A stretch of DNA of 64,000 bases from Lachnospiraceae bacterium (GTDB lineage: Bacteria > Bacillota > Clostridia > Lachnospirales > Lachnospiraceae). A program made the translations under genes and the position numbers. The stretch lies in NCBI GenBank assembly GCA_024684215.1, contig JAIKXH010000161.1, positions 7,789 to 71,788 of the forward strand, written 5' to 3'. The first letter of the stretch is position 1; each line of letters starts with the position of its first letter. Shown piece after piece: positions 1 to 12,301 of this stretch. A model generated the notes under the pieces. It searched no databases, had not been told where the DNA came from, and saw only the letters and a list, made by a program, of their open reading frames with translations.

Positions 1-55
1 TCACAGCTATTCGCCGTATATACAGCATCCTGCATGCGATGCGGTTATCCCTGCT

Positions 56-811
56 TTATATTACATAATAGGTACCGTCTTCGTCGGAAAATCTCTTAAC
101 CCCTACCCCGAAAACCTGCTCAATAATTCTTTTTTCTATAATTTCATCAGAGCTTCCTTTAAAGACAATCCGCCGATTATCCATAACCAAAATCTCATCT
201 GATATTTCGAGAGCGCGGGCTATATCATGCAGTACAAGAATCACAGTCTTACCTTCGTCACGCATTTTTCTGTACAAGTTAAGCATTTTCCTCTGCCCGG
301 GAATATCGAGATATGTAGTCGGCTCATCAGCCACCATATATTCACATTCCTGTGCAAGGGAAAGCGCGAAAAAACTCCTTTGCCTTGTTCCGCCTGACAA
401 TACCTCAACAGACATGTTCTCATATTTTTTTACATCTGCTAAATCCATAGCATGTTCAACTGCCCTTTTATCCTCTATGGTCATACTCCTTGCAAAACCC
501 AAATAAGGAAACCTTCCGTGAGAGACCAATAAAGCAGTTGAAATATCCGGTATCGTATTCCTTACCTGAGGGAGAAATGAAAGTGTCCTTCCTCTTTTTT
601 TAGGGCTGAAATTAAGGTAGTTTTCACCGTCTATATAAATATTTCCTTTTTCTACACGCGCGGATCCGTTTAGAGCGCTTAAAAGACTGGTTTTACCGCA
701 TCCGTTCGGACCTATGATCGAAGTGAGTTTTCCTTTCTGAAAGCTTACATTTATATCGGACAGAATTCTCTCCCCTCCGGCACTTATAGTTACATTTTCA
801 TACTTAAGCAT
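56..811 (-). CDS. ABC transporter ATP-binding protein, iron-chelate/corrinoid (FecE/BtuD-like) type
   Basis: 251-aa ORF with Walker A GPNGCGKTS, signature LSGGTRQR and Walker B MVADEPTTYLD. Its start overlaps the upstream FecCD permease stop by 8 nt. Confidence 0.9.
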   Translation of the reverse strand: MLKYENVTISAGGERILSDINVSFQKGKLTSIIGPNGCGKTSLLSALNGSARVEKGNIYIDGENYLNFSPKKRGRTLSFLPQVRNTIPDISTALLVSHGRFPYLGFARSMTIEDKRAVEHAMDLADVKKYENMSVEVLSGGTRQRSFFALSLAQECEYMVADEPTTYLDIPGQRKMLNLYRKMRDEGKTVILVLHDIARALEISDEILVMDNRRIVFKGSSDEIIEKRIIEQVFGVGVKRFSDEDGTYYVI

Positions 812-1835
812 GGATCCTGCGGCCCCCTTTCTTTCTAATCAAAAGGTAAATAAAGAAAGGACCTCCGATAAAGGACATGATAATACCCGTTGGCAACTCG
901 TATGGGGAAAACAATATACGGCTCAGCAAATCACACATGATCACAAAGCTGCCCCCTAAAAGCGCACTGCAAGGTATAAGGAATCTCGCATCGTTTCCGA
1001 AAAACCTCCTGCAAATATGCGGTACTATCAGTCCCGCAAAGCTTAAAAGCCCTGCATAGCTTACAACGCAGCCGGCAAGCACACTCGCTATAACAAGAAG
1101 AATGAACCTGACAGCGCTAACCCTCATTCCAAGAGATGTGGCAACTCCTTCTCCAAGACCCAGCATGTTTAAGTGCTTCGAAAAAAGTATTGCCAACATT
1201 AAACCAACGGTTATCCCGATTCCCGGGAGCCATACTGACCCAAAAGTCACTCCGCTTAAATTGCCCATCAGAAATGAATTTATATTTATAATAATATCGG
1301 TATTAAGCGTTTTAATCAGATTTATCCCGGCAGACAAAAAGCTTGAAACAGTAATACCTGCAAGAATGATAGTAACTCTCGATGTGTTTGAAAAATATGC
1401 CAGAGCAAAAATAAGTAAAGTTGCTATCAGCGCACCGGCAAAAGCAAATACAGGAATAGCCCAGGTCACTCCCGGAAGCATGAGCATAGAGAGCATTACG
1501 CAAAAACCTGCGCCGCTTCCAACACCGATTGTGTTTGGGCCTGCGAGCACATTGTTCATAACTCCCTGCAGCAACACCCCGGCCACCGATAGTCCGACTC
1601 CCGCAAGCAGTCCGCCAACAACTCTCGGCAATCTGATACTCCTAACAATAATAACTGTTTTTAACGGTAACGAATCAGATGCAAAGCGATCTCCCCCATA
1701 AATTATGGCTTTGAAAATCTCCTTTGGACTGATTCTCACACTTCCAAGTGATAAACATAAAACAAAACATATAAAAAGGAGTACAAATAGAGCAATTATT
1801 GTTACTGCCTTGTTTTTTAAGTGTATCTTGCTCAT
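804..1835 (-). CDS. FecCD-family ABC permease (iron-chelate/corrinoid/heme type)
   Basis: 343-aa polytopic ORF with FecCD/BtuC-like Gly-rich TM helices (RLPRVVGGLLAGVGLSVAGVLLQG). It lies between a BtuF-type SBP gene and the cognate ATPase gene. Confidence 0.9.
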   Translation of the reverse strand: MSKIHLKNKAVTIIALFVLLFICFVLCLSLGSVRISPKEIFKAIIYGGDRFASDSLPLKTVIIVRSIRLPRVVGGLLAGVGLSVAGVLLQGVMNNVLAGPNTIGVGSGAGFCVMLSMLMLPGVTWAIPVFAFAGALIATLLIFALAYFSNTSRVTIILAGITVSSFLSAGINLIKTLNTDIIININSFLMGNLSGVTFGSVWLPGIGITVGLMLAILFSKHLNMLGLGEGVATSLGMRVSAVRFILLVIASVLAGCVVSYAGLLSFAGLIVPHICRRFFGNDARFLIPCSALLGGSFVIMCDLLSRILFSPYELPTGIIMSFIGGPFFIYLLIRKKGGRRIHA

Positions 1836-1857
1836 CTGTACTCCTTTTTTAACATTG

Positions 1858-2466
1858 TTACATCGACTCTATGAGATCTTCCAGTTCACCGTCCGTCAGA
1901 CCTCTTCCGAGCCTCAGGCATTCATCACCCGCCTGCTTTAATACCTTATGACGTAAGGATTGATCTGTAATCTTTTCTTTAACATATCCCCTTATGCCGT
2001 TAAGATAATCCAAAATCTCTTCGATATTCTCAGGTATAATTCTTTCAAGTTCCTTACGCAGTTTAACAGCGACTTGCGGGCTGGCCCCGGAGCTGGTTAT
2101 GCCTGCCACCAGATCTCCTCTCCTTATAACCGATGGAAATATAAAATCACACAAATCCTTATTGTCCACAACGTTTATAGGTACTTTTTTCTTTCTGCAT
2201 ATTTCAAATATCTTTTCGTTCAGGGATCTGTTATCGGTTGCTGCAATGCAATAATCAGCCTCATTTGCATCCTTTGGAATAAACTCTCTTTTTATACATT
2301 TTATGGAGCTGTTATCACTTATTTCCGGAAGGATTTCTGGAGCGATCACACATAAATTCGCATCAAACTGTGACAGCACGTTAACCTTTTCAAGGGCTAT
2401 CCTGCCCCCTCCGATAATCACTCCTCTTTTCCCTTTTAATTCAAAACAAAATGGAAAGTATGCCAT
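1858..2466 (-). CDS. precorrin-2 dehydrogenase / sirohydrochlorin ferrochelatase (siroheme synthase N-domain, SirC/Met8-like)
   Basis: 202-aa ORF with the N-terminal Rossmann motif VIIGGGRIALEKV and the length typical of the CysG N-domain family. A siroheme-type reductase is encoded in the same operon. Confidence 0.8.
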   Translation of the reverse strand: MAYFPFCFELKGKRGVIIGGGRIALEKVNVLSQFDANLCVIAPEILPEISDNSSIKCIKREFIPKDANEADYCIAATDNRSLNEKIFEICRKKKVPINVVDNKDLCDFIFPSVIRRGDLVAGITSSGASPQVAVKLRKELERIIPENIEEILDYLNGIRGYVKEKITDQSLRHKVLKQAGDECLRLGRGLTDGELEDLIESM

Positions 2467-2469
2467 TGG

Positions 2470-3561
2470 TTATTCTCCGAAAATGTAATTGGCAAGTTTC
2501 TCATAGGCCTCACCCCAACGGGCATTGGGCTTGGAATTATACAATTCCTTTTCAATCTCAAAATATCTTCCGGACTTTACCGCAGTCAGTTCACTCCAAG
2601 CGGGATTACTGCTAAAAAGCTCCGCTACATTTGCCAAAGCAGCTTCCGTATCTTCACCCTGAGTGGTTACAAAAATGTAATCAGGATCTGCTGCCACTAT
2701 CGCTTCAAGACTTATGTCCTCAAGCAAACCCTCGTCACTGTCTGCTATATTTATAAGGCCAAGATCTGCAAGTATCTCGCCTCCAACGGTTCCTTTACTT
2801 CCCTTAGCTTTAACCGAGCTTGCTGCCGCCCTTATAAACAGAACTGTAGGTGCCTCTCCTTCAACTGCCTTTATCTCATCTATTTCCTTTTTTGCTCTTT
2901 GCCTTACCGCCTCTATAGAGTCAGCTACATCTTCTCCATACTTTTTATAACTATCACTGTTTCCGGTTATCTGTGTAAACGTCTCAAGTACTCCAAGATA
3001 ATCTTCAAACTTCGAAACCTCAAAATAAGCTGTGGTTATTCCGCTATTTTCAAATACATCCAAAAGTTCAACCTGAGAAGATGTTCCCGCGCTTGCTATA
3101 ATAAAATCAGGTTCGGCGTCAAAAAGCTTTTCCAGATCGGGCTCTAAAAAGCTTCCGACATTAACAACATCCTCGGAAAGGTTTAAATCAAATGATGTCC
3201 AGGCATCCTTTACGGTAGCCGATACCTCTCCGCCGGCCAATACCCATACATCGGCAAAGCTTCCGAGAAGTACCGCCACCCTCTTTGGTGAATCTACAGT
3301 TACTTCTCGCGAAAGAGCGTCTACAAAAGTCACAGGAGATGACGCTTCTGTTTCATAGTTTTCTGTTTCATCAGCGTCTTTTTCGTAGGCATCCATTTCG
3401 TATGCTTCTGTTTCATCAGCTTCATTTTCGTACGCATCTATCTCATAAGCTTGCGCTTGTGTACTTACCGGCTCGGGGTCCTTACTGTCATTTTTCGAGC
3501 ATCCGGCCAATGTAAATAACGTGGTTGCGATTAAAGTCAGTGTTAAAATCTTTTTTTTCAT
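2470..3561 (-). CDS. ABC substrate-binding lipoprotein, BtuF/FhuD (Peripla_BP_2) type, with acidic repeat linker
   Basis: 363-aa ORF with signal peptide plus lipobox TLAGCS. A Y/E/D/A-rich repeat linker is followed by a class III SBP-like body (KRVAVLLGSFADVWVLAGG). Confidence 0.85.
   Translation of the reverse strand: MKKKILTLTLIATTLFTLAGCSKNDSKDPEPVSTQAQAYEIDAYENEADETEAYEMDAYEKDADETENYETEASSPVTFVDALSREVTVDSPKRVAVLLGSFADVWVLAGGEVSATVKDAWTSFDLNLSEDVVNVGSFLEPDLEKLFDAEPDFIIASAGTSSQVELLDVFENSGITTAYFEVSKFEDYLGVLETFTQITGNSDSYKKYGEDVADSIEAVRQRAKKEIDEIKAVEGEAPTVLFIRAAASSVKAKGSKGTVGGEILADLGLINIADSDEGLLEDISLEAIVAADPDYIFVTTQGEDTEAALANVAELFSSNPAWSELTAVKSGRYFEIEKELYNSKPNARWGEAYEKLANYIFGE
3343..3450 (-). 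repeat. in-frame degenerate tandem repeat encoding an acidic (A/Y/E/D/T) linker
   Basis: The DNA motif ttctgtttcatcagc recurs three times. It encodes AYEIDAYENEADETEAYEMDAYEKDADETENYETEA directly after the lipobox of the SBP. Confidence 0.7.
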
Positions 3562-3569
3562 AATACTTT

Positions 3570-4016
3570 CTAAAAATAATATTCCTTAGCGATAATTCTT
3601 AAATCCTCCTTAGTCACTTCCCCTTTTTCAACATGAAAAGAGTTAAGAACAGGATTTTTTGCCATAAGCGAGAGAATCATATAACTCGCATTTTTGTCAA
3701 ATGAGAGCCTGATATCTTCCTGCGACGGCCTGGAAGGCGACTCAGGATGAGAATGCCAATTTCCAAGCAGCTTATAACCGTTGGTTCTCATGTCCTTTAC
3801 AGCCTCGAGCTGTTCTTTTGGGTCTAAAGTAAAATGATCGGTCGCGTGATCAGTATTTGTCAGATAATAAATCTTTTCAATCAATCTTCCGCCATCATCT
3901 TCGCTTCCCGCAATGAGGCCGCAGGCCTCTTCCGGCATATGCGACTTTGCATACTCCACCATTTCGTCATACAGGTGATAATCAATTCTGACAATTCCCA
4001 TCATATTTCCTTTCAA
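3570..4016 (-). CDS. JAMM/MPN+ (Mov34) zinc metalloprotease
   Basis: 148-aa ORF with the complete JAMM motif: EEACG, then HSHPESPSRPSQED (H-x-H-x7-S-x2-D). It lies 6 nt downstream of the E1 gene. Confidence 0.85.
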   Translation of the reverse strand: MKGNMMGIVRIDYHLYDEMVEYAKSHMPEEACGLIAGSEDDGGRLIEKIYYLTNTDHATDHFTLDPKEQLEAVKDMRTNGYKLLGNWHSHPESPSRPSQEDIRLSFDKNASYMILSLMAKNPVLNSFHVEKGEVTKEDLRIIAKEYYF

Positions 4017-4022
4017 AACAAC

Positions 4023-4847
4023 TTAATGTCCTCCCGGTTTAAATTCACATGCTGCCTGCTCATAATCGATAGGTTCTAATATGGTCGGATTGTCTCCGCA
4101 CACAGGACATGCATGAGTGTCAGCGGGGAGCTTAATCTTGTGGAACTCCATAGTAAGTGCATCATATGTCAGAAGATATCCTGTCAAAAGATCTCCGACT
4201 CCTATGATATACTTTACCGCCTCCATAGCCTGAAGACTTCCTATGACACCACCCATCGCTCCAATTACACCAGCCTGTTTGCAGGTGGGTACAGCATCCT
4301 TTGGCGGCGGGTTCTTAAATACGCATCGATAGCACGGGCCCTTACCGGGAACATAGGTCATGAGCTGACCTTTAAATCTTATGATCCCCGCGTGTGAAAA
4401 TGGCTTTTTCTCTATTACGCAGGCGTCATTTATCAAAAACTTCGCAGGAAAATTATCCGTTCCGTCTATTATAAAATCATAATCCCTGATAAGCTCTCGT
4501 ATGTTGCTTGAATCAACAAACATATGATACATTTTGACCTCAACATCGGGATTCATTGCATTCATAGTTTCTTTTGCCGACTCTACCTTGGGCTTGCCTA
4601 CATCTGCTGTGCCGTGGATTATCTGTCTTTGCAGGTTTGACAGATCAACCTCATCGGCATCAACAATGCCAATGGTTCCCACACCTGCAGCTGCAAGATA
4701 CATTGCTGCCGGAGCTCCAAGGCCGCCGGCTCCTATGATTAGCACCTTTGCGCTAAGAAGCTTTTTTTGTCCTTTTGCACCCACTTCCTTAAGTATGATA
4801 TGTCTTGAATAGCGTTCAAGCTGTTCATCTGAAAGAGCCATCAGCAT
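4023..4847 (-). CDS. MoeB/ThiF/HesA-family E1-like adenylyltransferase
   Basis: 274-aa ORF with RYSRHI, nucleotide loop IIGAGGLGAP, zinc cysteines CYRC and CPVCG, and a conserved Cys in PTCKQAG. There is no rhodanese domain. Its start overlaps the carrier gene stop (ATGCTGATG). Confidence 0.9.
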   Translation of the reverse strand: MLMALSDEQLERYSRHIILKEVGAKGQKKLLSAKVLIIGAGGLGAPAAMYLAAAGVGTIGIVDADEVDLSNLQRQIIHGTADVGKPKVESAKETMNAMNPDVEVKMYHMFVDSSNIRELIRDYDFIIDGTDNFPAKFLINDACVIEKKPFSHAGIIRFKGQLMTYVPGKGPCYRCVFKNPPPKDAVPTCKQAGVIGAMGGVIGSLQAMEAVKYIIGVGDLLTGYLLTYDALTMEFHKIKLPADTHACPVCGDNPTILEPIDYEQAACEFKPGGH

Positions 4848-5047
4848 CCACCTCCCATAAAGTAAAGGAACTCAACATTATCCCCTTCCTTTAAAATAGT
4901 CGAAGCCTTCTTTTCCGTTTCCACAAATTCCTCATTTATCGATACGGTTACATATTCCGGCATCTCTACATTCTCTATTTCTATAAGTTCGGGAAGCGTA
5001 AGTCCGTTCTTATATTCTTTCTTTTCTCCCGCTACAGTAATAGTCAT
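4841..5047 (-). CDS. ThiS/MoaD-like ubiquitin-fold sulfur carrier protein with capped C-terminus (..MGGGC)
   Basis: 68-aa ORF with size and pattern typical of ThiS (..EGDNVEFLYFMGGG). It carries one extra C-terminal Cys after the Gly-Gly. It is translationally coupled to the E1 gene. Confidence 0.8.
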   Translation of the reverse strand: MTITVAGEKKEYKNGLTLPELIEIENVEMPEYVTVSINEEFVETEKKASTILKEGDNVEFLYFMGGGC

Positions 5048-5062
5048 TGTTTACCTCCAAAA

Positions 5063-5308
5063 TTAATCGCCAATTTTTTTAACATACAGCGTATATGTTC
5101 CGTCTTCATTGTCTTTTAGTTTTAATATCTGATGTCCCTCATCCTTAATTGAACGAGGCACATTTTGAACCGGCTCACCGTCATTCATTCTTATTGCAAG
5201 AATCTGACCTTCTTCAAGCTCATCCAAAGTTACCTTGGCTTTAACAAATGTTAGCGGGCAAACCTTGTCCGTTATATCCACTTCCTCATCAAATGCTATA
5301 TCTGACAT
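5063..5308 (-). CDS. TusA/SirA-like sulfurtransferase
   Basis: 81-aa ORF with the N-terminal conserved cysteine context DKVCPLTFVKAK typical of the TusA/SirA fold. It lies 2 nt downstream of the sulfite-reductase-like gene. Confidence 0.8.
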   Translation of the reverse strand: MSDIAFDEEVDITDKVCPLTFVKAKVTLDELEEGQILAIRMNDGEPVQNVPRSIKDEGHQILKLKDNEDGTYTLYVKKIGD

Positions 5309-5310
5309 GT

Positions 5311-6195
5311 TTATACTCCTTCATATGCTTTCTGAATCTGTTTTCGGAATTCCTCTTCTCCGACCCTTTGCAAAGTATGCCTGAATCTCTCACCCGGCTT
5401 AGCATTTTTATCAAAGAAATCTATTGTAGCATCAGCCACTCTAAAGAGTGTCTCTTTGTCCTTAATGATCGGAACGATCTGTTCTCCTTTGTATATCTGG
5501 TTTCCAAACAGACCACCGAATGAGACAATATATCCCGGAGTGTAGTCCCAAGCGTCAACCGGACAACTCTTAACGCATCTGCCGCAGTTGTTGCACTTGG
5601 ATTTATCTATTACGACCTTTCCGTCCTCCATTTTAAGTGCGCCTTCTCGGCACGCCTTGATGCACACTCCGCATGATATGCAGGTTTCCGGTTTATAATC
5701 GATAATATAACCGCCCTTTACTCCAAGATCGTTCTCTTCGCTCTTTAAGCAATTGTTCATACATCCGGTGACGCCGAATTTAAATTTATGAGGAAGCTCT
5801 CTTCCAAAGTATCTCTCATCAAACTCTTTAGCCAGTTCATATGAATCTATACAACCGCTTGGACATATCGCACTTCCCTGGCATGCGGTTACCGTCCTGA
5901 CTCTGGGTCCGCATACTCCGGGTTTTACTCCGCCTTCCGCGAGCTTACCTCTAACTTCTTCTATATCGCTAAACTCGATAAAGGGGATTTCCACGCCCTG
6001 CCTTGAAGTCATATGTACGTATCCGTGACCATACTTTTCCGCAACCTCGGCGATAGTCTTTATATTCTCGGCGGTAAGGTTTCCCCCGACAACAGCAAGT
6101 CTCAGAGAAAAATACCCCTTTTGCTTTTGCCTCATAAACCCGCCTTTTTTAAGTGATGAATAATCGATTGCATCTGACATTTTTATTTCCTCCAT
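5311..6195 (-). CDS. compact siroheme-type sulfite/nitrite reductase-like protein with inserted 2x[4Fe-4S] ferredoxin
   Basis: 294-aa ORF with the siroheme-[4Fe-4S] cysteine pattern CQGSAIC (CX5C) and CMNNC (CX3C). It also has two ferredoxin motifs, CISCGVCIKAC and CNNCGRCVKSCP. Confidence 0.8.
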   Translation of the reverse strand: MEEIKMSDAIDYSSLKKGGFMRQKQKGYFSLRLAVVGGNLTAENIKTIAEVAEKYGHGYVHMTSRQGVEIPFIEFSDIEEVRGKLAEGGVKPGVCGPRVRTVTACQGSAICPSGCIDSYELAKEFDERYFGRELPHKFKFGVTGCMNNCLKSEENDLGVKGGYIIDYKPETCISCGVCIKACREGALKMEDGKVVIDKSKCNNCGRCVKSCPVDAWDYTPGYIVSFGGLFGNQIYKGEQIVPIIKDKETLFRVADATIDFFDKNAKPGERFRHTLQRVGEEEFRKQIQKAYEGV

Positions 6196-6292
6196 ACATA
6201 GTCTTCATATCTTATATCCGATTTATATTTGTTTTCTTCTTTTTACCGGACCATCTTTGTTTGATTTCTTAGATCTCACTTAATGTCTTTTT

Positions 6293-7534
6293 CTATGAAT
6301 CCTCACTAAGCTTTACAAATGCTCTGTCAAAGTCTGCAATCAAATCTTCTACGTCCTCGATCCCAACACTGATTCTTATAAGGTCATCAAAAACTCCTGC
6401 AGCTTCTTTTTGTTTATCTGTAGAGTGTAATGAAATAGTTGACGCGGGATGGATGACTAATGTCTTGGTATCTCCGACATTGGACAATCTGTAGGCAAGT
6501 TCAAGCAGATTTAAAAGTTTATACGCCTTTTCCTTGCTTCCGACCCGTAGCGTAACTATCGCTCCGTATCCGCCATTTAGGATCTTTTTTGCTGTGTCAT
6601 GCCACTTACTTGATTCAAGTCCCGGAAAATTTACAATAACCGAAGGATACTTGTCGTGAATATGTTTAGCCAAAGCGGCTGCGTTTGCACATTGGCGTTC
6701 CATGCGCAGCCCCATCGTTTCAAGTCCTATTTGATTTAAATAAGCTGTCTGCGGCGCCATACAGGCTCCCGCATTTCTCTGAAGGCCTGCTCTCAATCTG
6801 GCAATATACGCAAACGGGCCGAATTTAATGTAGTCTTTAAGCATCGGGTACTTTTCAGCTGTCCACTTAAACTTACCACCATCGGTTAGCACTCCTCCTA
6901 TGGCATTACTGCTGCCATTTATGTATTTTGAAGTGGAATTTATGACAATATCCGCTCCGTGATCTAAGACTCTGACCAGATATGGAGTAGCTATAGTATT
7001 GTCAATAAACAATGGCAACCCGTGGCTGTGTGCTATCGCAGCAAGGCTATCAATGTCCGTAACATCAAGGCAAGGATTACCGATAGTCTCGGCGTATATT
7101 AGCTTTGTCCTCTCGTTTATCGCATCCTCAATCTCTTTTTTGTTATTGTTCTGAACATATCTCGTCTTTATTCCAAAATTCTCAAGATCTCTGAAAAGAT
7201 CTATCGTCCCCCCGTACAAAGATGCACTAGATACTATCTCGTCGCCTGACATAAGTATATTTGTCAAAGCGTTAAAAATCGCTGCCATACCGGATGCGGT
7301 TGCTACCGACCCGATTCCGCCCTCTAACTTGTTTATCCTGTTTTCGAATACCGCGATCGTCGGATTTTGAACCCTGGTGTAACAATACCCCGGATTTTTT
7401 CCTGCAAATATCCCTTCAAGGTCCTCCGCACTTTCTTGAAAAAAAGCACTTGTCTGATAAATCGGAGTTAGGGTTGAACCATATTTTTCTCTCTTATCCA
7501 CTCCATCATGAAGAAGAGCTGTGTTAAACTTCAT
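6293..7534 (-). CDS. metY: O-acetylhomoserine sulfhydrylase-type PLP enzyme (Cys/Met metabolism family)
   Basis: 413-aa ORF with N-terminal FNTALLH..TPIYQTSAF and the PLP-lysine context DIVINSTSKYINGS. Length and motifs are typical of MetY/MetZ-type enzymes. Confidence 0.85.
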   Translation of the reverse strand: MKFNTALLHDGVDKREKYGSTLTPIYQTSAFFQESAEDLEGIFAGKNPGYCYTRVQNPTIAVFENRINKLEGGIGSVATASGMAAIFNALTNILMSGDEIVSSASLYGGTIDLFRDLENFGIKTRYVQNNNKKEIEDAINERTKLIYAETIGNPCLDVTDIDSLAAIAHSHGLPLFIDNTIATPYLVRVLDHGADIVINSTSKYINGSSNAIGGVLTDGGKFKWTAEKYPMLKDYIKFGPFAYIARLRAGLQRNAGACMAPQTAYLNQIGLETMGLRMERQCANAAALAKHIHDKYPSVIVNFPGLESSKWHDTAKKILNGGYGAIVTLRVGSKEKAYKLLNLLELAYRLSNVGDTKTLVIHPASTISLHSTDKQKEAAGVFDDLIRISVGIEDVEDLIADFDRAFVKLSEDS

Positions 7535-7545
7535 GCTTTTGCTCC

Positions 7546-8319
7546 TTATATTGCATATTCCATTATGCTGTGGTTAAATTTGTTAACGATAGCATTTCTG
7601 TAAAAAGCAAAATCTTCGCTGCTTCTCAACCTCGGTCTCGGAAGTTCAATCGTTATGGTCTCGTCTACTTCAGAGGGTCTCGGTTTCATAACTACAACCC
7701 TGTCTCCAAGAAAAATTGCTTCGTCAATATCATGAGTAACCATGATCATTGTCGTTTTCTCTTCTTCTCTGATCCTGTCGATCTCTGTCTGCATATTCAT
7801 TCTTGTCAATGCATCCAAAGCTCCGAGCGGTTCATCCAAAAGAAGTATTCTCGGGTGTCTCATAAGTGCTCGGGCAATTGAAACTCTCTGTGCCATTCCA
7901 CCCGAGAGCTGCCCTGGATACACTTTTTCAAAGTTTTCCAGATCAACTTTCTTTAGATATTCGGCTGCCAGATTATGGAGTTCCTTTTTTGTCCCTTCCA
8001 AACCAATGGTTAAGTTTTCCTCAACACTAAGCCATGGAAGCAGTCTGTGTTCCTGGAATATCACACCTCTGTCAAGTCCGGCTTTTTCCACTCTTTTACC
8101 ATCCAGTAAAATATCTCCGCCATACTCTTTTTCAAGCCCTGCTATAAGCCTTAACAATGTTGTCTTTCCACATCCGCTGGCGCCGATGATCGATATAAAC
8201 TCGCCCTCATTAACGTTAAGGCTCACGTTTCTTATTGCCTCAACATCCTTATCTTTAGTATGGAATACTTTTGATACATTTTTAATTTCCAAAATAGTGT
8301 TTTGACTCATACGAATCAC
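7546..8319 (-). CDS. ABC transporter ATP-binding protein, nitrate/sulfonate/taurine (NitT/TauT) family
   Basis: 257-aa ORF with Walker A GASGCGKTT, signature LSGGMAQR and Walker B LLLDEPLGALD. The overall pattern resembles SsuB/TauB. Confidence 0.9.
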   Translation of the reverse strand: MIRMSQNTILEIKNVSKVFHTKDKDVEAIRNVSLNVNEGEFISIIGASGCGKTTLLRLIAGLEKEYGGDILLDGKRVEKAGLDRGVIFQEHRLLPWLSVEENLTIGLEGTKKELHNLAAEYLKKVDLENFEKVYPGQLSGGMAQRVSIARALMRHPRILLLDEPLGALDALTRMNMQTEIDRIREEEKTTMIMVTHDIDEAIFLGDRVVVMKPRPSEVDETITIELPRPRLRSSEDFAFYRNAIVNKFNHSIMEYAI

Positions 8320-8331
8320 CCTTTAGTTTCG

Positions 8332-9186
8332 TTATTTGGCAGTTTTCTTTTTCCATCTCAAAGTGCTTTCCTCGATCTTTCGAAGTATCACGTCGATCAC
8401 AACACCAATAACACCGATTACTACCATTAATGCAATAAGCTTATCCGACCACAAAAACTCACGCGACTTCATAAGTGCATATCCTAACCCCGTAAGTCCT
8501 CCGAGCATCTCCGCTGCCACTACAGCCATCCATGCGTTTCCTGCTCCCAGTCTCAATCCTGTAAATATTGATGACACCGCTGAGGGAAGTACAACCTTCC
8601 TAAGAAAAACTGCCTTTTTCAGTTCCAGGACTTCCGCAAGTTCGAAATAATCGGCCTGAACACCTTTTATTCCCTGAAGCGTATTTAGATATATGGGAAT
8701 AAGAACGCCTCTTGCTATAATGATTTCTTTTGATACCTCTCCTATGCCAAACCAGAGGATGATTATGGGCATCCATGCATATAGCGGGATTTGTCTTATA
8801 ACATTTATTATCGGTGAAAAAACTCTTTCAGCTACTTTGTTCAGCCCGGAAAACATTCCGAGTATAAGGGCGATACCGGCTCCCCAAAGGTAACCGATAA
8901 GCACCCTTTTCCCGCTTAAAACAAGATCGGCTCCGAGTGATCCGTCCTTTACCATTTCTACAAATGCCTTTACGACCTTTACAGGTGATGGAAGTATCAC
9001 TTCAAGAAGTAATCCCGATCCGGCAAGTATCTGCCATAGTGCCAACAATATAATCGGAACCGCAATGGTATTGAGTAATGCTAAAAGCCTTGGGCCAAAT
9101 TTATTACTGCCTATATCACCGGAGAGCTTTTTCAAAAAAGAATTCCTTTCGTTCTCATTTCCGGTTAATGTCAATTCTCTTGCCAT
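8332..9186 (-). CDS. ABC permease, NitT/TauT (SsuC/TauC-like) family
   Basis: 284-aa ORF with a six-TM BPD_transp_1 layout and an EAA-like loop (FELAEVLELKKAVFLRKVVLP). Confidence 0.85.
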   Translation of the reverse strand: MARELTLTGNENERNSFLKKLSGDIGSNKFGPRLLALLNTIAVPIILLALWQILAGSGLLLEVILPSPVKVVKAFVEMVKDGSLGADLVLSGKRVLIGYLWGAGIALILGMFSGLNKVAERVFSPIINVIRQIPLYAWMPIIILWFGIGEVSKEIIIARGVLIPIYLNTLQGIKGVQADYFELAEVLELKKAVFLRKVVLPSAVSSIFTGLRLGAGNAWMAVVAAEMLGGLTGLGYALMKSREFLWSDKLIALMVVIGVIGVVIDVILRKIEESTLRWKKKTAK

Positions 9187-9212
9187 ACTTCACGTTCCTC
9201 TGCCAAAAAAGT

Positions 9213-10382
9213 TTATTCAAAGAAATTGCTGTTAAAGAATTCCTGCTTATCTACTCTTCCTTCCTCAGTAAACTCCTCGGTGTTCTCAATAAGCCAATTC
9301 TGATAGTTATCGGTATCGTCTATAAGCTGTGACAAAGGTGCAGAGGCAGAGTAGAAGGTCTCCTTACTTCTGTCGTTGTACCAGGCTGTGTTTACAGCGG
9401 GATCTCTTGTAATGGTCTCTATAATCTGTGAAGTCTCCTCCGGATTCTGGATTATATAAGCATTTACAAGCTGTCTAAGCTTTAATACTGCCTTTAAGAT
9501 GTTTACATGGCTGTTTGCAAATTCCGTTGAAGAGAACGTTACCGATGCTCCACCGTAATTTGTATAAACGCCGTTTTCCTTAGCGTTCGCAATCTCACGG
9601 AAATTACCGGATATGATCTCGTTGTTAATATTTGCAAAAGGATGTACAGATATTGCATCTACCTCTCCTGCATCGAGAGCGGTCTTAATATCGCTGTTTG
9701 ATACATTTGCATAAGTCCAATCGGTTCCTTCTACCCATCCAAGGTCAATTGTCTGTTCAATAAGTGCTACGTACTGGCATCCTGCCTTCCAGCTGGCTAT
9801 GGTCTTTCCTTTGAGATCTTCAAGCTTTTGGTAATCGGAGTCCTTTCTGACAAGGATTGTAACTATACCGGGTGAAGGATCCTCAGAAAGCTCTACTGCT
9901 GTTACATCGCCACCCTGTGCTTTATATAGAAGATATGGATAGAGCATACGATTTGTCAGATGAAGCTCGTCTCTTTCCATCAGCTGAACCTCATTTCCGA
10001 CTGTTCCTTCCACTATGGCTACCGATGTGTTATTATCTCCCAAAAGTTTATCGAACCATCCGTTTTTGTCGGATATATACACCCATCCTCCTGAGCCCAG
10101 CTTTAAAGTATCCAGTTTTTCAAATTCGTACTTTTCTTTAAGCTTTGGAATCGCCGCGGTTATAACTCCGAGTGTTACCTTGTCAGATGAAGTTACATTT
10201 CTTTCAATGAGTTCTGCCGCAAGCGCCTCTTCCTCCGAATTGGGTGCTATTACCTCACTTACGATATCTGACTGATTTTTATCTCCTGTTTTCGCAGCTG
10301 TTTTTGCACCGCAGCCGGTAAGTAAAAGTGCCGAAGCAAAGCCGATTGCTGCTATTCGTGTAATAATTTCTTTGTTTTTCAT
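9213..10382 (-). CDS. ABC substrate-binding lipoprotein (NMT1/SsuA-like fold)
   Basis: 389-aa ORF with signal peptide and lipobox LLLTGCGAK. It lies directly upstream of the NitT/TauT permease and ATPase genes. Confidence 0.75.
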   Translation of the reverse strand: MKNKEIITRIAAIGFASALLLTGCGAKTAAKTGDKNQSDIVSEVIAPNSEEEALAAELIERNVTSSDKVTLGVITAAIPKLKEKYEFEKLDTLKLGSGGWVYISDKNGWFDKLLGDNNTSVAIVEGTVGNEVQLMERDELHLTNRMLYPYLLYKAQGGDVTAVELSEDPSPGIVTILVRKDSDYQKLEDLKGKTIASWKAGCQYVALIEQTIDLGWVEGTDWTYANVSNSDIKTALDAGEVDAISVHPFANINNEIISGNFREIANAKENGVYTNYGGASVTFSSTEFANSHVNILKAVLKLRQLVNAYIIQNPEETSQIIETITRDPAVNTAWYNDRSKETFYSASAPLSQLIDDTDNYQNWLIENTEEFTEEGRVDKQEFFNSNFFE

Positions 10383-10403
10383 AATGCTACTCCTTGTTTG
10401 CTA

Positions 10404-11414
10404 TTATTCTTCCTCATCCAATTCCTTAAGAGCTCTCTCCAAAAAGCTCTTGTCAGCCCATTTGCTAACGTCTACTACGGAATCTGTAAAACCATGCTCA
10501 TACAAAAATGTTGCTCTGGTTTGCAAAGACTCCAAGCCTTCACTTGAAAAATTAGGTTCCAACTGCTTATAAAAATCTGCCGGATATGCTCTCCTGTACT
10601 GCTCTACGCTTCCGTGTGTCTGCTCGGCCAACAAAGCCTCCGCTTCATCCTTATTATCTTTAGCCCATCTTGCAGCTCTTATTACCGCCTTTAAATACTC
10701 AATTACAACCTGAGGTTCTTCTTCTGCAAGCTTTCTGCTTACCGTTAAGACGTTCGGCCACTCGTTGTTTACGGGATCAACACTTTTTTGATCCGCTACC
10801 AGGTTAATGAGTTTTCTGTACTTTCCGCTTTCCAGGACTATCTCCGATGCCGAAAGCTTTACAAATACCGCATCGACTCTGCCCTCATCCAGTGCCTCAA
10901 AATCAAGTCCGGGCTTAAATGTCCATTTTGCCGTTCCATCGGGGAAGTCCGGCTTTTCATCAACAATAAACTTCCATTCGACGTCATCCTTTTTTAATCC
11001 CGCATACTCCAAAGCCACTTCAAATCCTTCGATCGTTGCGGTTTTTTGATGATCTATAGTAGCGTTTATTCTGTCGGGAATTCCGATTCTCTTACCTTTT
11101 AGATCTGCCACCGTCTTTATGTCCGAATCGGCTCTGACAACAATTGCCTGCTGCCCGGGGATAAGATTTATTCCGATCAAAACAGGTTCTGCGCCTCTGG
11201 ACTTTGCCCAGATAGGAGGAGTGTTTCCGCCTTCACGGAACAATCTGTCATTCTCGTATGTGAAATGTTCCTTCCAATGTTCCTTTGAAAGAGTTTGAAG
11301 CCTTACCGGAGTGTATCCGATTTTTTTGAGTCCCTCACTAAGAAAACCATGATTAGCTGCAATATATGATGCATTTGCAACAGGGCAAATTGTATAATTG
11401 AATTCTTTAGCCAT
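10404..11414 (-). CDS. cytoplasmic (leaderless) NMT1/THI5/SsuA-like SBP-fold protein
   Basis: 336-aa ORF with an SBP-like sequence (LKGKRIGIP.., VDAVFV..) but no signal peptide or lipobox (starts MAKEFNYTICPVANAS). It is the first gene of the operon, with a strong RBS (AAAAGGAGGA) upstream. Confidence 0.7.
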   Translation of the reverse strand: MAKEFNYTICPVANASYIAANHGFLSEGLKKIGYTPVRLQTLSKEHWKEHFTYENDRLFREGGNTPPIWAKSRGAEPVLIGINLIPGQQAIVVRADSDIKTVADLKGKRIGIPDRINATIDHQKTATIEGFEVALEYAGLKKDDVEWKFIVDEKPDFPDGTAKWTFKPGLDFEALDEGRVDAVFVKLSASEIVLESGKYRKLINLVADQKSVDPVNNEWPNVLTVSRKLAEEEPQVVIEYLKAVIRAARWAKDNKDEAEALLAEQTHGSVEQYRRAYPADFYKQLEPNFSSEGLESLQTRATFLYEHGFTDSVVDVSKWADKSFLERALKELDEEE

Positions 11415-11656
11415 ATGCTTGTCCTCCTTTTTAGTCTGAATCTAATCACTACGCAATTGCTGTTTGATTTGCTTTTTTGAAGATTAACATGCTATAGGTA
11501 TATCCGTCTAATACCTTAAAACTATCATCCATTATAAGTATTGCTTATCGCCATTACTCTGAATTTGCTAAAATATTTATATATCAAAAGAGGTAAAGCA
11601 TGGAACTTATATTGTTTTGGCCCCTTTATAAGCGTGCCCGTAAGTTAATTAGGCGC

Positions 11657-11685
11657 TTGCCGTACTATTTATTTTTGTATATAAT
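11657..11685 (+). promoter_or_regulatory. putative sigma-A promoter for tadA (TTGCCG-17-TATAAT)
   Basis: -35 TTGCCG at 11657-11662, a 17-nt spacer and -10 TATAAT at 11680-11685, about 22 nt upstream of the tadA ATG. Confidence 0.45.
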
Positions 11686-11707
11686 CTTTTTTTAGGAAAG
11701 GTATACG

Positions 11708-12211: not shown

Positions 12212-12278
12212 ATTAAAAGTGCCGGACGTAAAAATTAAAATGTTCGACATATAATTTAAAGTACCGGACGTAAAATAT
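12195..12278. repeat. four degenerate tandem 21-22-bp units (consensus AAAAGTnCCGGaCGTAAAAaTT)
   Basis: The units read aaaagtccgggcgctaaatt / aaaagtgccggacgtaaaaatt / aaaatgttcgacatataattt / aaagtaccggacgtaaaatat. The first unit spans the tadA stop codon. Confidence 0.6.
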
Positions 12279-12301
12279 AAGTGATGAGGGGTTATAAAAT
12301 T

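What the first reader, a model, noticed from the sequence alone, without database searches (positions are those of the whole stretch)
3570..7534. Ubiquitin-fold carrier + E1 + JAMM protease wired to TusA, a compact siroheme sulfite reductase and MetY: a protein-thiocarboxylate homocysteine pathway in a Clostridia-like genome
Six consecutive minus-strand genes are separated by -7 to 97 nt. They are a MetY-type PLP enzyme (6293-7534) and a 294-aa siroheme-type reductase module with CX5C..CX3C plus an inserted 2x[4Fe-4S] ferredoxin (5311-6195). Next come a TusA-like protein (5063-5308) and a 68-aa ThiS/MoaD-fold protein (4841-5047). Last are a MoeB/ThiF E1 with GAGGLG and CYRC/CPVC (4023-4847) and a JAMM protease with a complete E..HxH-x7-S-x2-D motif (3570-4016). 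No thiG/thiH/thiE or moaA/moaE genes are nearby, so the Ubl/E1 pair is not a thiamine or molybdopterin module. The combination follows the logic of the Wolinella succinogenes HcyS/HcyF/HcyD/MetY system and the Mycobacterium tuberculosis CysO/MoeZ/Mec+/CysM system. That logic runs sulfite to sulfide, then carrier-COSH, then a carrier-homocysteine adduct, then JAMM release. I am not aware of this pathway having been characterised in Clostridia. The TusA and mini sulfite-reductase additions are not part of the textbook versions. Automated annotation would scatter these genes over thiamine, Moco and hypothetical labels.
Basis: partly seen in the sequence, partly recalled or inferred. Interest (0 to 1): 0.8.

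Follow-up and report, generated by a model that had tools for sequence, protein, structure and literature searches.

The report
Carrier-protein homocysteine synthesis operon, Lachnospiraceae
This is a real, well-conserved operon in a rumen or gut Lachnospiraceae bacterium that most likely makes the methionine precursor homocysteine by passing reduced sulfur through a small ubiquitin-like carrier protein, a pathway already known from Wolinella and predicted for Clostridia in 2006, here apparently fed by an uncharacterised sulfite-releasing enzyme.

Summary
All six genes, their spacing and their motifs are exactly as described.

New support:
- In 74 relatives the carrier ends in invariant GGG plus a variable 1-11-residue cap.
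- Cluster-linked MetYs lack a ~10-residue loop. The carrier-dependent Wolinella MetY also lacks it, whereas sulfide-using MetYs have it.
- In 55 loci with enough flanking sequence, E1, ThiS and TusA co-occur in 53, MetY in 47 and Sir in 42. No thiamine or Moco genes appear.

The novelty claim is overstated. Iyer, Burroughs and Aravind (2006) described this neighbourhood, with SirA/TusA and sulfite reductase, in low-GC Gram-positive bacteria. The Wolinella pathway uses Sir-derived sulfide.

The distinctive part lies outside the given coordinates. The six genes sit in a 14-gene same-strand run. It begins with a cytoplasmic DszB-like putative desulfinase and an SsuABC-type importer, which replace the sulfate-activation genes found in relatives. 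It ends with a siroheme chelatase gene inside an iron/haem-type ABC importer.

Verdict: a new member of a known kind. No step has been tested biochemically.

The parts
10404..11414 (-). Cytoplasmic DszB-like protein (336 aa, no signal peptide). It is a putative C-S hydrolase (desulfinase) that releases sulfite, and is the first gene of the run.
   Evidence: Best PDB sequence hit is DszB 2de2, E 2.6e-22. The AF2 model (pLDDT 92.3) best matches DszB 2de3/2de2 by Foldseek (E 1e-24, TM 0.77-0.80), ahead of SsuA. C10, H50 and R60 are invariant in 24 family members; C10 aligns with catalytic C27 of DszB, and H50 and R60 lie in segments aligned with DszB's HFTY and R-x-GG-xx-PP, which I identify with His60/Arg70 from my own knowledge.
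9213..10382 (-). Lipoprotein substrate-binding protein of an SsuA/NMT1-type ABC importer.
   Evidence: Pfam NMT1 1e-10 and NCBIfam SsuA_fam 2e-24, below cut-off. N-terminal lipoprotein-like signal sequence with Cys. Weak PDB hit to SsuA 2x26.
8332..9186 (-). ABC importer permease (SsuC/TauC-like).
   Evidence: BPD_transp_1 2e-25; NCBIfam SaoP 1e-55 and SsuC 1e-48, both below cut-off.
7546..8319 (-). ABC importer ATPase (SsuB/TauB-like).
   Evidence: ABC_tran 2e-35; NCBIfam SaoA 3e-76, SsuB 2e-63 and TauB 1.5e-62, all below cut-off.
6293..7534 (-). MetY-type O-acetylhomoserine sulfhydrylase, short-loop subtype. PLP lysine is K203.
   Evidence: Cys_Met_Meta_PP 1e-114. TIGR01326 scores 452 bits against a cut-off of 495. 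PDB hits: 7kb0 374 bits, W. succinogenes 3ri6 286 bits. It lacks the ~10-aa EPDPSYHGVS loop, as does 3ri6.
5311..6195 (-). Small siroheme-[4Fe-4S] sulfite reductase with an inserted 2x[4Fe-4S] ferredoxin domain (free-standing Fsr-C / group III Dsr-LP type).
   Evidence: Pfam NIR_SIR_ferr, NIR_SIR and Fer4. It aligns from residue 16 to 289 with residues 340-613 of the 620-aa Fsr chain 7np8, E 2e-39, using that chain's numbering for the MjFsr residues named in PMC10229431. R100, K137 and K139 align with sulfite-binding R423, K460 and K462, and C149 with the bridging C472. All are at least 97% conserved in 45 orthologues.
5063..5308 (-). TusA/SirA-type sulfur-relay protein, with a conserved C17-P18 motif.
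   Evidence: Pfam TusA 3e-20. C17 and P18 are at least 97% conserved. TusA is present in 53 of 55 related loci.
4841..5047 (-). ThiS/MoaD-fold sulfur carrier (68 aa). It has an invariant ...EFLYFMGGG plus a one-residue cap (Cys68).
   Evidence: Pfam ThiS 2e-11; TIGR01683 59 bits against a cut-off of 37. PDB 2k5p/3cwi, E 4e-11, has the same FLYFMGGG end. Caps vary (C, Q, R, F, QR, SYGING and others) in 74 orthologues.
4023..4847 (-). E1-like adenylyltransferase (MoeB/ThiF family) with no rhodanese domain. The start codon overlaps the carrier's last codons.
   Evidence: ThiF 3e-88. MoeB 1jw9, E 2e-59. The GxGGxG motif, the zinc cysteines C172, C175, C247 and C250, the loop cysteine C189 and the tail cysteine C267 are conserved. 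The overlap is seen.
3570..4001 (-). JAMM/MPN+ metalloprotease (143 aa from the ATG at 4001; the mechanical ORF extends to 4016).
   Evidence: Prok-JAB 5e-23. PDB 2kks, E 2e-38. E25, H83, H85, S93 and D96 are conserved. It is 100% identical to a 143-aa public protein.
2470..3561 (-). Lipoprotein substrate-binding protein of an iron/haem/corrinoid-type (FecB/IsdE-like) ABC importer.
   Evidence: NCBIfam IsdE 4e-20, below cut-off. It lies 8 nt downstream of JAMM. It co-occurs with the cluster in L001, L002, L006, L008, L020 and L053.
1858..2466 (-). CysG N-terminal-type precorrin-2 dehydrogenase / sirohydrochlorin ferrochelatase (last steps of siroheme synthesis).
   Evidence: TIGR01470 scores 126 bits against a cut-off of 62. 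Relatives carry HemB, HemL, HemC, CobA/HemD and CysG_N around the cluster.
804..1835 (-). FecCD/BtuC-type permease.
   Evidence: NCBIfam BtuC and FecD about 1e-55, below cut-off.
56..811 (-). FecE-type ABC ATPase.
   Evidence: NCBIfam FecE 4e-65, below cut-off.

Best explanation
This is an assimilatory sulfur operon that makes homocysteine through a protein thiocarboxylate. The proposed steps follow.

(1) An SsuABC-type importer brings in an organosulfur compound. The cytoplasmic DszB-like hydrolase releases sulfite from it. This is inferred, and the substrate is unknown.

(2) The small siroheme sulfite reductase reduces sulfite to sulfide. Electrons enter through its inserted 2x[4Fe-4S] domain, probably from ferredoxin, and the adjacent CysG_N gene supplies siroheme. 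This is inferred from conserved ligands and substrate-binding residues.

(3) The JAMM protease trims the variable C-terminal cap (Cys68 here) from the 68-aa carrier and exposes the glycine end. This is inferred from cap variability and the HcyS-Ala precedent.

(4) The rhodanese-less E1 adenylates the carrier's C-terminal glycine. This is inferred from homology.

(5) Sulfide converts the adenylate to carrier-COSH, either directly or handed on as a persulfide by TusA. The role of TusA is the least certain step.

(6) The short-loop MetY adds carrier-COSH to O-acetylhomoserine.

(7) JAMM hydrolyses the carrier-homocysteine adduct, which frees homocysteine and recycles the carrier.

None of these steps has been shown biochemically for this organism.
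For: - All six domain assignments pass curated cut-offs.
- The closest solved structures fit the scheme. The carrier and JAMM match structural-genomics proteins of unassigned function (2k5p/3cwi and 2kks). Sir matches the C-terminal half of Fsr.
- Neighbourhood conservation in 55 loci with enough flanking sequence: E1 53, ThiS 53, TusA 53, MetY 47, Sir 42. Sulfate-activation, APS-reductase-like, thioredoxin, thioredoxin reductase, Rrf2 and siroheme genes recur nearby. No thiamine or Moco family appears among the 40 commonest gene clusters.
A protease is therefore needed before adenylation.
- Cluster-linked MetYs and the carrier-dependent W. succinogenes MetY (3ri6; its carrier dependence is stated in PMC8191291) share a ~10-residue loop deletion. 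That loop is present in T. maritima MetY, 8sf5, 4kam and FUB7. L056 and L069 carry a long-loop and a short-loop MetY side by side.
- Sir keeps all four siroheme-cluster cysteines, all eight ferredoxin cysteines and the sulfite-binding Arg and Lys residues.
- The same neighbourhood class was defined by Iyer et al. 2006.
- For the DszB-like step. It sits next to Sir and the carrier genes in three different gene orders (window and L002, L018, L082).
Against: - There is no experimental evidence for any step in this lineage.
- Overall, the MetY is more similar to sulfide-using OAHS (374 bits) than to W. succinogenes MetY (286 bits). It scores just below the TIGR01326 cut-off.
- I could not retrieve the W. 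succinogenes HcyS, HcyF, HcyD or Sir sequences, so I made no direct comparison for those four.
- No homoserine O-acetyltransferase gene, methionine synthase gene, S-box or T-box lies nearby.
- Eight of the 55 loci lack an adjacent MetY and 13 lack Sir. L082 has Sir, TusA, E1, ThiS and JAB without MetY. The carrier may therefore serve other acceptors.
- Why a bacterium from a sulfide-rich habitat would need a carrier is unexplained.
- The role of TusA is a guess.
- The first sulfite-binding Arg of Sir (R32) aligns one residue out of register with Fsr R355.
Confidence: 0.75

Rival explanations
1. The carrier, E1, JAMM and TusA form a general sulfide-capture or sulfur-relay system. Its thiocarboxylate feeds acceptors other than MetY, such as cysteine synthesis, thiolated cofactors or tRNA. 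MetY in the operon simply uses free sulfide made by Sir.
For: - Some loci have the carrier set without MetY (8 of 55), or with CysK (9 of 55).
- L082 has no MetY.
- Some relatives carry a cysteine desulfurase, a rhodanese-PP-loop ATPase and a rhodanese-TusA-DsrE fusion nearby.
- Overall, MetY is closest to sulfide-using enzymes.
Against: - MetY is adjacent in 47 of 55 loci.
- It carries the loop deletion shared with the only MetY known to use a carrier. Where two MetYs sit side by side, the short-loop copy is the one adjacent to TusA and JAMM.
- A JAMM protease is needed to release an amino-acid adduct, as in the HcyD and Mec+ precedents.
Confidence: 0.15
2. This is an ordinary ThiS/ThiF (thiamine thiazole) or MoaD/MoeB (molybdopterin) sulfur-carrier pair that happens to lie next to sulfur-assimilation genes.
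For: NCBIfam scores the carrier above the ThiS equivalog cut-off (59.2 against 37.45). It scores the E1 above the MoeB subfamily cut-off (298.9 against 266) and the ThiF cut-off (276 against 275.25).
Against: - No ThiG, ThiH, ThiE, MoaA or MoaE gene was found among the window ORFs scanned (at least 180 aa across 64 kb; at least 50 aa in bases 1-14000). None appears among the 40 commonest gene families in the 80 related loci.
- Canonical ThiS and MoaD end in GG with no cap and need no JAMM protease.
- A JAMM gene is present in all loci by construction, and TusA is present in 53 of 55.
Confidence: 0.03
3. This is a ubiquitin-like protein-tagging system (SAMP- or TtuB-type), in which the carrier is conjugated to lysines and JAMM acts as the de-conjugase.
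For: JAMM has a sub-threshold match to the haloarchaeal desampylase model (E 2e-19, 70 bits against a cut-off of 130). The E1 matches the UbaA model (342 bits against a cut-off of 450).
Against: - Both scores are well below their cut-offs.
- The neighbourhood consists entirely of sulfur-assimilation genes.
- No E2-like or target-specifying genes are present.
Confidence: 0.02
4. This rival concerns the upstream gene only. The DszB-like protein is not an enzyme. It is a cytoplasmic ligand-binding regulator of the ABC importer, like the NrtA-like C-terminal domain of NrtC/CmpC. Sulfite would then enter as such or come from elsewhere.
For: - The fold is that of a substrate-binding protein.
- Foldseek also finds the CmpC and NrtC regulatory domains at lower rank.
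- The gene always sits inside an SsuABC-type operon.
Against: - The residues I identify with the DszB catalytic Cys/His/Arg are invariant across the family at 31-83% identity to the window protein.
- DszB, not a binding protein, is the best match by both sequence and structure.
Confidence: 0.35

Closest known systems
Wolinella succinogenes HcyS / HcyF / HcyD / MetY / Sir protein-thiocarboxylate methionine pathway (Krishnamoorthy & Begley 2011; Tran et al. 2011, PDB 3RI6). This is the Iyer-Burroughs-Aravind 2006 neighbourhood class 4e.
   Same: - It has the same parts list: a capped ThiS-fold carrier, an E1 without rhodanese, a JAMM protease that both matures the carrier and releases the product, MetY, a sulfite reductase and SirA/TusA.
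- The MetY shares the short loop with 3RI6.
- Relatives of the window also carry sulfate-activation genes.
   Different: - The window has no sulfate-activation genes within 64 kb. It has an SsuABC-type importer plus a DszB-like protein instead.
- Overall, MetY is closer to canonical OAHS than to 3RI6.
- The cap is Cys here. It is Ala in HcyS, which I state from my own knowledge of that paper.
- The W. succinogenes carrier, E1, JAMM and Sir sequences could not be compared here.
Mycobacterium tuberculosis CysO / MoeZ / Mec+ / CysM cysteine pathway.
   Same: The logic is the same: carrier thiocarboxylate, then a PLP enzyme, then a carrier-amino-acid adduct, then release by JAMM. JGI annotators name one JAMM homologue '[CysO sulfur-carrier protein]-S-L-cysteine hydrolase'.
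   Different: - The PLP enzyme here belongs to the gamma-family (Cys_Met_Meta_PP, MetY), not the CysM/CysK fold.
- The E1 has no rhodanese domain, and a separate TusA is present instead.
- The product is homocysteine, not cysteine.
Streptomyces MetO / MetM / Mec / MoeZ thiocarboxylate route from O-phosphohomoserine (Hasebe et al. 2024, as summarised in the GapMind 2026 preprint).
   Same: It also makes homocysteine from a carrier thiocarboxylate, and a Mec-type JAMM hydrolase is involved.
   Different: MetM is a threonine-synthase homologue that uses O-phosphohomoserine. The enzyme here is MetY-type.
Fsr (F420-dependent sulfite reductase), C-terminal half, and group III Dsr-like proteins (Susanti & Mukhopadhyay 2012; Jespersen et al. 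2023, PDB 7NP8/7NPA).
   Same: The alignment is end-to-end. It includes the siroheme-[4Fe-4S] cysteines, the inserted two-cluster ferredoxin domain and the sulfite-binding Arg and Lys residues.
   Different: The protein is free-standing, with no F420H2-oxidase half. It is bacterial, and its electron donor is unknown. It scores far below the AsrC equivalog cut-off (159 against 324), and no AsrA or AsrB gene was found among the window ORFs scanned.
DszB, 2'-hydroxybiphenyl-2-sulfinate desulfinase of Rhodococcus (PDB 2DE2/2DE3).
   Same: DszB is the best match by sequence and by predicted structure. The Cys/His/Arg positions are conserved, the protein is cytoplasmic and the fold is binding-protein-like.
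   Different: - Identity is only 26-27%.
- No dszA or dszC monooxygenase gene is nearby.
- The host is an anaerobe.
- The gene is embedded in an ABC importer operon.
- The substrate is unknown and is unlikely to be hydroxybiphenyl sulfinate.

Membership tests
HcyS-type protein-thiocarboxylate homocysteine pathway (Iyer 2006 class 4e) | ThiS/MoaD-fold carrier whose Gly-Gly end is masked by a removable C-terminal extension | tested here: met
   Pfam ThiS 2e-11. An invariant GGG followed by 1-11 variable residues in 74 orthologues.
HcyS-type protein-thiocarboxylate homocysteine pathway (Iyer 2006 class 4e) | E1-like adenylyltransferase lacking a rhodanese domain, with a separate SirA/TusA protein in the neighbourhood | tested here: met
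   The 274-aa E1 has a ThiF domain only. TusA is adjacent here, and in 53 of 55 loci. The criterion is taken from PMC1779556.
HcyS-type protein-thiocarboxylate homocysteine pathway (Iyer 2006 class 4e) | JAMM/MPN+ metalloprotease with an intact E..HxH..S..D site | tested here: met
   Prok-JAB 5e-23. E25, H83, H85, S93 and D96 are conserved.
HcyS-type protein-thiocarboxylate homocysteine pathway (Iyer 2006 class 4e) | MetY-type O-acetylhomoserine sulfhydrylase in the cluster that resembles the carrier-dependent enzyme | tested here: met
   MetY is adjacent in 47 of 55 loci. It shares the loop deletion with W. succinogenes 3RI6. Its overall score is nevertheless higher against sulfide-using OAHS.
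HcyS-type protein-thiocarboxylate homocysteine pathway (Iyer 2006 class 4e) | Siroheme sulfite reductase in the cluster | tested here: met
   Sir is present in 42 of 55 loci.
HcyS-type protein-thiocarboxylate homocysteine pathway (Iyer 2006 class 4e) | Sulfate transport and activation genes (ATP sulfurylase, APS kinase, APS/PAPS reductase) in the cluster | tested here: not met
   None is found in the 64 kb window. They are present in 13-15 of 55 related loci. The window has a DszB-like protein plus an SsuABC-like importer instead.
HcyS-type protein-thiocarboxylate homocysteine pathway (Iyer 2006 class 4e) | Biochemistry: carrier-COSH formation, a MetY-made carrier-homocysteine adduct and its cleavage by JAMM | not testable with these tools
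   This needs purified proteins and mass spectrometry.
CysO/CysM/Mec+/MoeZ cysteine pathway | CysM/CysK-fold (PALP) cysteine synthase, and an E1 fused to rhodanese | tested here: not met
   The PLP enzyme is Cys_Met_Meta_PP. The MoeZ equivalog scores 316 bits against a cut-off of 647, and the matched E1 region lacks the rhodanese part.
Thiamine ThiS/ThiF or Moco MoaD/MoeB pair | Co-location with ThiG/ThiH/ThiE or MoaA/MoaE, and an uncapped GG end | tested here: not met
   No such genes were found among the window ORFs scanned or among the 40 commonest gene families of the related loci. The carrier is capped. The sequence models alone do pass their cut-offs.
Group III Dsr-like protein / Fsr-C type sulfite reductase | Coupled siroheme-[4Fe-4S] motif, peripheral plus additional [4Fe-4S] clusters, and four sulfite-binding Arg/Lys residues | tested here: met
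   C105, C111, C145 and C149; two CxxCxxCxxxC motifs; R100, K137 and K139 aligned to MjFsr R423, K460 and K462. R32 is one residue out of register with R355 but is conserved.
AsrC (anaerobic sulfite reductase subunit C) | Score above the TIGR02912 cut-off, and AsrA/AsrB partner genes | tested here: not met
   It scores 159 bits against a cut-off of 324. No AsrA or AsrB gene appears in the run.
DszB desulfinase family | Catalytic Cys27 with His60 and Arg70 in a binding-protein-like fold, in a cytoplasmic protein | tested here: met
   C10, H50 and R60 are invariant. C10 is aligned to DszB C27. Foldseek's top hit is DszB, TM 0.8. No signal peptide is present. The His60/Arg70 numbering is from my own knowledge.
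DszB desulfinase family | Release of sulfite from a sulfinate substrate, and membership of a dszABC operon | not testable with these tools
   The activity is untested. No dszA or dszC-like monooxygenase genes are nearby in the window or in L081-L086.

The most novel reading that the evidence does not exclude
The run encodes an oxygen-independent route from an imported organosulfur compound to methionine in a strict anaerobe. A previously uncharacterised family of cytoplasmic DszB-like, cofactor-free C-S hydrolases sits inside SsuABC-type importer operons of gut and rumen Firmicutes, Synergistetes and spirochaetes. In this reading it releases sulfite. The sulfite is reduced by a free-standing Fsr-C-type sulfite reductase and passed through TusA to a ubiquitin-like carrier without ever becoming free sulfide.
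Probability: 0.3. Interest if true: 0.65.

Novelty: new member of a known kind. Interest (0 to 1): 0.42.

Why it matters
According to Price et al. 2018, the protein-thiocarboxylate route to homocysteine was absent from KEGG and MetaCyc in 2017. Its genes are still named ThiS, MoeB and 'M67 peptidase' by automated annotation.

This work shows the route is common in Lachnospiraceae and other rumen and gut Clostridia. The search returned more than 5000 JAMM homologue clusters and conserved synteny in most of the 80 sampled genomes. Methionine prototrophy and sulfur flow in these communities are therefore probably mis-predicted.

Three sequence signatures could let annotators recognise the pathway: the GGG-plus-cap carrier end, the short-loop MetY, and a rhodanese-less E1 paired with TusA.

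The DszB-like importer module is a testable lead to an anaerobic source of sulfite from organosulfur compounds.

Tried and rejected
- Rfam at gathering thresholds on the whole window, and at E<=1 on bases 3000-12300, found nothing. No S-box, T-box or other riboswitch explains regulation.
- The promoter and terminator scan was no better than shuffled sequence.
- The two key W. succinogenes papers were not held (Krishnamoorthy & Begley 2011; Tran et al. 2011). What I say about HcyS-Ala and Sir-derived bisulfide rests on my own knowledge of the abstract. Indirect support comes from PMC8191291 and PMC5764234.
- The first attempt to scan genomes with a 34-sequence JAMM alignment failed because no stretch was conserved enough. 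A 10-sequence alignment worked.
- The single genome scan returned only Clostridia-like relatives. No W. succinogenes, Geobacter or Desulfitobacterium locus could be fetched for direct comparison.
- A literature search for DszB homologues in anaerobes returned nothing relevant. This shows only that nothing was found in the held library.
- I rejected AsrC as the identity of Sir because the score is below cut-off and AsrA and AsrB are absent.
- I rejected a defence-system reading (Cap2/Cap3, 6A-MBL) because the scores are far below cut-off and the context is sulfur metabolism.
- I rejected the idea that the terminal Cys68 of the carrier is functional, because it is replaced by Q, R, F or longer tails in relatives.

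Full report
**What is there**

| Gene | Coordinates | Gap to next gene (nt) |
|---|---|---|
| MetY | 6293-7534 | 97 |
| Sir-like | 5311-6195 | 2 |
| TusA | 5063-5308 | 15 |
| ThiS-fold carrier | 4841-5047 | -7 |
| E1 | 4023-4847 | 6 |
| JAMM | 3570-4016 | |

Pfam assigns Cys_Met_Meta_PP; NIR_SIR_ferr + NIR_SIR with two Fer4 motifs; TusA; ThiS; ThiF; and Prok-JAB. All pass the curated cut-offs. The JAMM protein is 100% identical to a 143-aa public protein from a Lachnospiraceae MAG. The real start is therefore probably the ATG at 4001.

**Wider anatomy**

The six genes are the middle of a 14-gene same-strand run, from 11414 down to 56, with gaps of -8 to 97 nt. The run has no Rfam hit and no convincing internal terminator.

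- Upstream lie a 336-aa SsuA/NMT1-family protein with no signal peptide (10404-11414), a lipoprotein substrate-binding protein, a permease and an ATPase of the SsuABC/TauABC type.
- Downstream lie a FecB/IsdE-like binding protein, a CysG N-terminal-type precorrin-2 dehydrogenase/ferrochelatase, a FecCD permease and an ATPase.
- The rest of the window encodes arabinan/xylan utilisation and housekeeping genes. It contains no thiamine, Moco or methionine genes.

**Closest solved structures**

- Sir-like: residues 16-289 align with residues 340-613 of the F420-dependent sulfite reductase Fsr (7np8, E 2e-39). Using the residues named for MjFsr by Jespersen et al. 2023, R423, K460 and K462 correspond to R100, K137 and K139. 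The bridging C472 corresponds to C149. R355 corresponds to the conserved R32, one position out of register. In the classification of Susanti & Mukhopadhyay 2012, the protein is therefore a free-standing group III Dsr-like protein. That paper already noted such proteins in Clostridium, Desulfitobacterium and Geobacter.
- JAMM: the best match is 2kks, an uncharacterised structural-genomics protein (E 2e-38).
- Carrier: the best match is 2k5p/3cwi, labelled ThiS, which ends in the same FLYFMGGG.
- E1: it matches MoeB 1jw9 and has no rhodanese domain.

**Conservation of the neighbourhood**

A genome scan with a JAMM alignment gave 80 loci. Almost all come from Lachnospiraceae and other rumen or gut Clostridia, including Pseudobutyrivibrio, Agathobacter, Acetitomaculum, Roseburia, Anaerobutyricum, Eubacterium, Ruminococcus and Selenomonas. 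I mapped the window proteins onto them. In the 55 loci with enough flanking sequence, the counts were:

| Gene | Loci (of 55) |
|---|---|
| E1 | 53 |
| ThiS | 53 |
| TusA | 53 |
| MetY | 47 |
| Sir | 42 |
| Thioredoxin, between TusA and ThiS | 35 |

The usual gene order is MetY-Sir-TusA-(Trx)-ThiS-E1-JAMM. An alternative order is MetY-ThiS-E1-JAMM-Sir-TusA.

Clustering all ORFs of the loci and annotating the commonest families gave the following recurrent neighbours: thioredoxin reductase, CysD, CysN, an APS-reductase-like flavoprotein with its ferredoxin subunit, an Rrf2 regulator, CysK, the siroheme genes HemB/L/C, CobA-HemD and CysG_N, a cysteine desulfurase with an SrpI-type encapsulin, and arylsulfotransferase. 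No thiamine or Moco family appears. The context is sulfur assimilation throughout.

**Two new pieces of evidence for the carrier mechanism**

First, in 74 orthologous carriers the sequence is invariant up to ...EFLYFMGGG. It then carries a tail that varies in residue and in length: C 28 times, Q 13, R 13, plus F, QR, RV, AR, AWH, SYGING, SATLHQYRSID and others. A carrier that must be adenylated on a terminal glycine cannot work with such a cap, so a protease is needed. This is the HcyS-Ala/HcyD logic. In the window, the GGG codons also form a Shine-Dalgarno-like GGAGGTGG for the E1 gene, and the Cys68 codon overlaps the E1 ATG. This helps explain why the cap is unconstrained.

Second, the window MetY and every cluster-linked MetY examined lack a ~10-residue loop (EPDPSYHGVS in T. 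maritima MetY). That loop is present in sulfide-using enzymes (7kb0, 8sf5, 4kam, FUB7). The W. succinogenes MetY 3ri6 also lacks it, and PMC8191291 describes that enzyme as unusual because it uses a carrier thiocarboxylate. L056 and L069 carry a long-loop and a short-loop MetY side by side, and the short-loop copy is the one next to TusA and JAMM.

**What is already known**

Iyer, Burroughs and Aravind 2006 (PMC1779556) defined this neighbourhood type in Table 1, row 4e. [quoted passage not shown] They found it in Geobacter and Wolinella, and in low-GC Gram-positive genomes (Amet, Bcer, Chyd, Csac, Cthe, Dhaf). They state that the E1 always lacks rhodanese and that SirA is always present. The W. 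succinogenes pathway was reconstituted in 2011 and is cited as established by Price et al. 2018. By my own knowledge of its abstract, it uses Sir-derived bisulfide and a C-terminal Ala cap removed by HcyD.

The claim that TusA and the sulfite reductase are additions to the textbook version is not correct. 'Uncharacterised in Clostridia' holds only for biochemistry.

**What is different here**

The window has no CysD, CysN, APS reductase, thioredoxin, thioredoxin reductase, CysK or Rrf2 homologue anywhere in 64 kb. Instead, the run begins with the signal-less SsuA-family protein. The evidence that this protein is DszB-like:

- Its best PDB match is DszB, the 2'-hydroxybiphenyl-2-sulfinate desulfinase (E 2.6e-22).
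- The segment around the catalytic Cys is conserved: DszB Y-S-N-C27-P-V-P-N-A against window Y-T-I-C10-P-V-A-N-A. The C27S mutant entry 2de3 confirms the position.
- In 24 family members at 31-83% identity to the window protein, C10, H50, R60, G62, G63, P66 and P67 are invariant.
- An AlphaFold model (pLDDT 92.3) matches DszB best (E 1e-24, TM 0.77-0.80), ahead of the SsuA binding proteins (E 5e-18).

The family is small, with 98 clusters in 5.8 billion proteins. It comes mainly from anaerobes. It always sits in an operon with its own lipoprotein binding protein, permease and ATPase. It lies next to Sir, TusA and the carrier genes in three different arrangements: the window and L002, L018, and L082/L083. 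I read it as a candidate oxygen-independent source of sulfite. This is an inference, the substrate is unknown, and a regulatory role cannot be excluded.

**Most likely mechanism, and what is uncertain**

The proposed sequence is: import; sulfite release by the DszB-like protein; six-electron reduction by the siroheme enzyme; cap removal by JAMM; adenylation by E1; thiocarboxylate formation; MetY-catalysed addition to O-acetylhomoserine; and JAMM release of homocysteine. All steps are inferred from homology, conserved residues and context. The role of TusA, as a persulfide relay standing in for the missing rhodanese domain, is the weakest link. So is the role of the thioredoxin found in relatives.

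Evidence against the model:

- MetY is overall closer to sulfide-using enzymes.
- Some relatives lack MetY or Sir.
- No methionine-responsive RNA element or other met genes are nearby.

I put the core explanation at about 0.75.

**Verdict**

This is a genuine, strongly conserved and correctly interpreted system, but of a kind already described. It is a new member, with a locally distinctive sulfur-input module. It is interesting mainly as an annotation gap in gut and rumen Clostridia, and for the DszB-like lead.

Noticed in passing
window 10404-11414 (-): A cytoplasmic 'SsuA-family' protein is really DszB-like: it has the Cys/His/Arg triad, DszB is its best match by sequence and by predicted structure, and it lacks a signal peptide. 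It belongs to a small uncharacterised family from anaerobes that always sits inside SsuABC-type importer operons, often as two paralogues.
   Followed up: yes
window 56-3561 (-); also L001, L002, L006, L008, L020, L053, L082/L083: A siroheme chelatase gene (CysG_N here, CbiK/CbiX in L082) is embedded in or placed beside a FecB/FecCD/FecE-type (iron, haem or corrinoid) ABC importer, directly next to the Sir and carrier cluster. The window has no HemB, HemL, HemC or CobA/HemD homologue. The importer may therefore supply iron or a tetrapyrrole precursor for siroheme.
   Followed up: partly
L004 6627-6944 and 34 other loci: Most relatives have a thioredoxin gene between TusA and ThiS, and 17 also have a thioredoxin reductase. 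In L004 the active site reads C-I-A-C, not the classical C-G-P-C. The window lacks this gene entirely.
   Followed up: partly
L073 2536-3504, L066 1492-3042 and similar loci: An SrpI-like type 2A encapsulin shell protein (Pfam 7e-96) lies next to the carrier cluster in 6 loci. A class-V cysteine desulfurase with a ~135-residue N-terminal extension does so in about 11 loci.
   Followed up: partly
window 4023-4100 (-), E1 residues 251-274: The E1 has a ~24-residue tail beyond the second zinc CxxC. In it, P254, I256, D261-Y262-E263 and C267 are at least 97% conserved in 69 orthologues. The conserved tail cysteine could be a sulfur-accepting site that compensates for the missing rhodanese domain.
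   Followed up: no
window 4838-4862 (-): The carrier's three glycine codons (GGA GGT GGA) form a Shine-Dalgarno-like sequence for the E1 gene, and the cap codon TGC overlaps the E1 ATG. This indicates translational coupling and may be one reason the cap residue drifts.
   Followed up: yes
L056 and L069, 4959-7700: Two MetY paralogues lie side by side. One is a canonical long-loop copy (436 aa). The other is a short-loop copy next to TusA and JAMM. In these two loci no ThiS or E1 was detected beside JAMM.
   Followed up: partly
L003, L005, L010, L021, L039, L053, L074, L078: Contigs labelled Bacteroidaceae, Parabacteroides, Bacteroides, Thermoguttaceae or Fibrobacter carry clusters about 60-78% identical to the Lachnospiraceae one. 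L039 ('Thermoguttaceae') has the same layout as Roseburia amylophila L046. Likely explanations are mis-binned or mislabelled assemblies, or possibly horizontal transfer.
   Followed up: no
L082 13004-18377: In one lineage the Sir-TusA-E1-ThiS-JAB genes are interleaved with two response regulators and a histidine kinase and lack MetY. This suggests two-component control and possibly another acceptor for the carrier.
   Followed up: no
window 14122-39365 (-): A large arabinan/xylan utilisation block contains AraA, an FGGY kinase, three GH43 enzymes, an alpha-L-arabinofuranosidase, sugar ABC transporters, a 993-aa protein with a substrate-binding-protein domain and a DUF5696 protein. It is consistent with a plant-fibre-degrading rumen or gut host and is unrelated to the finding.
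   Followed up: partly
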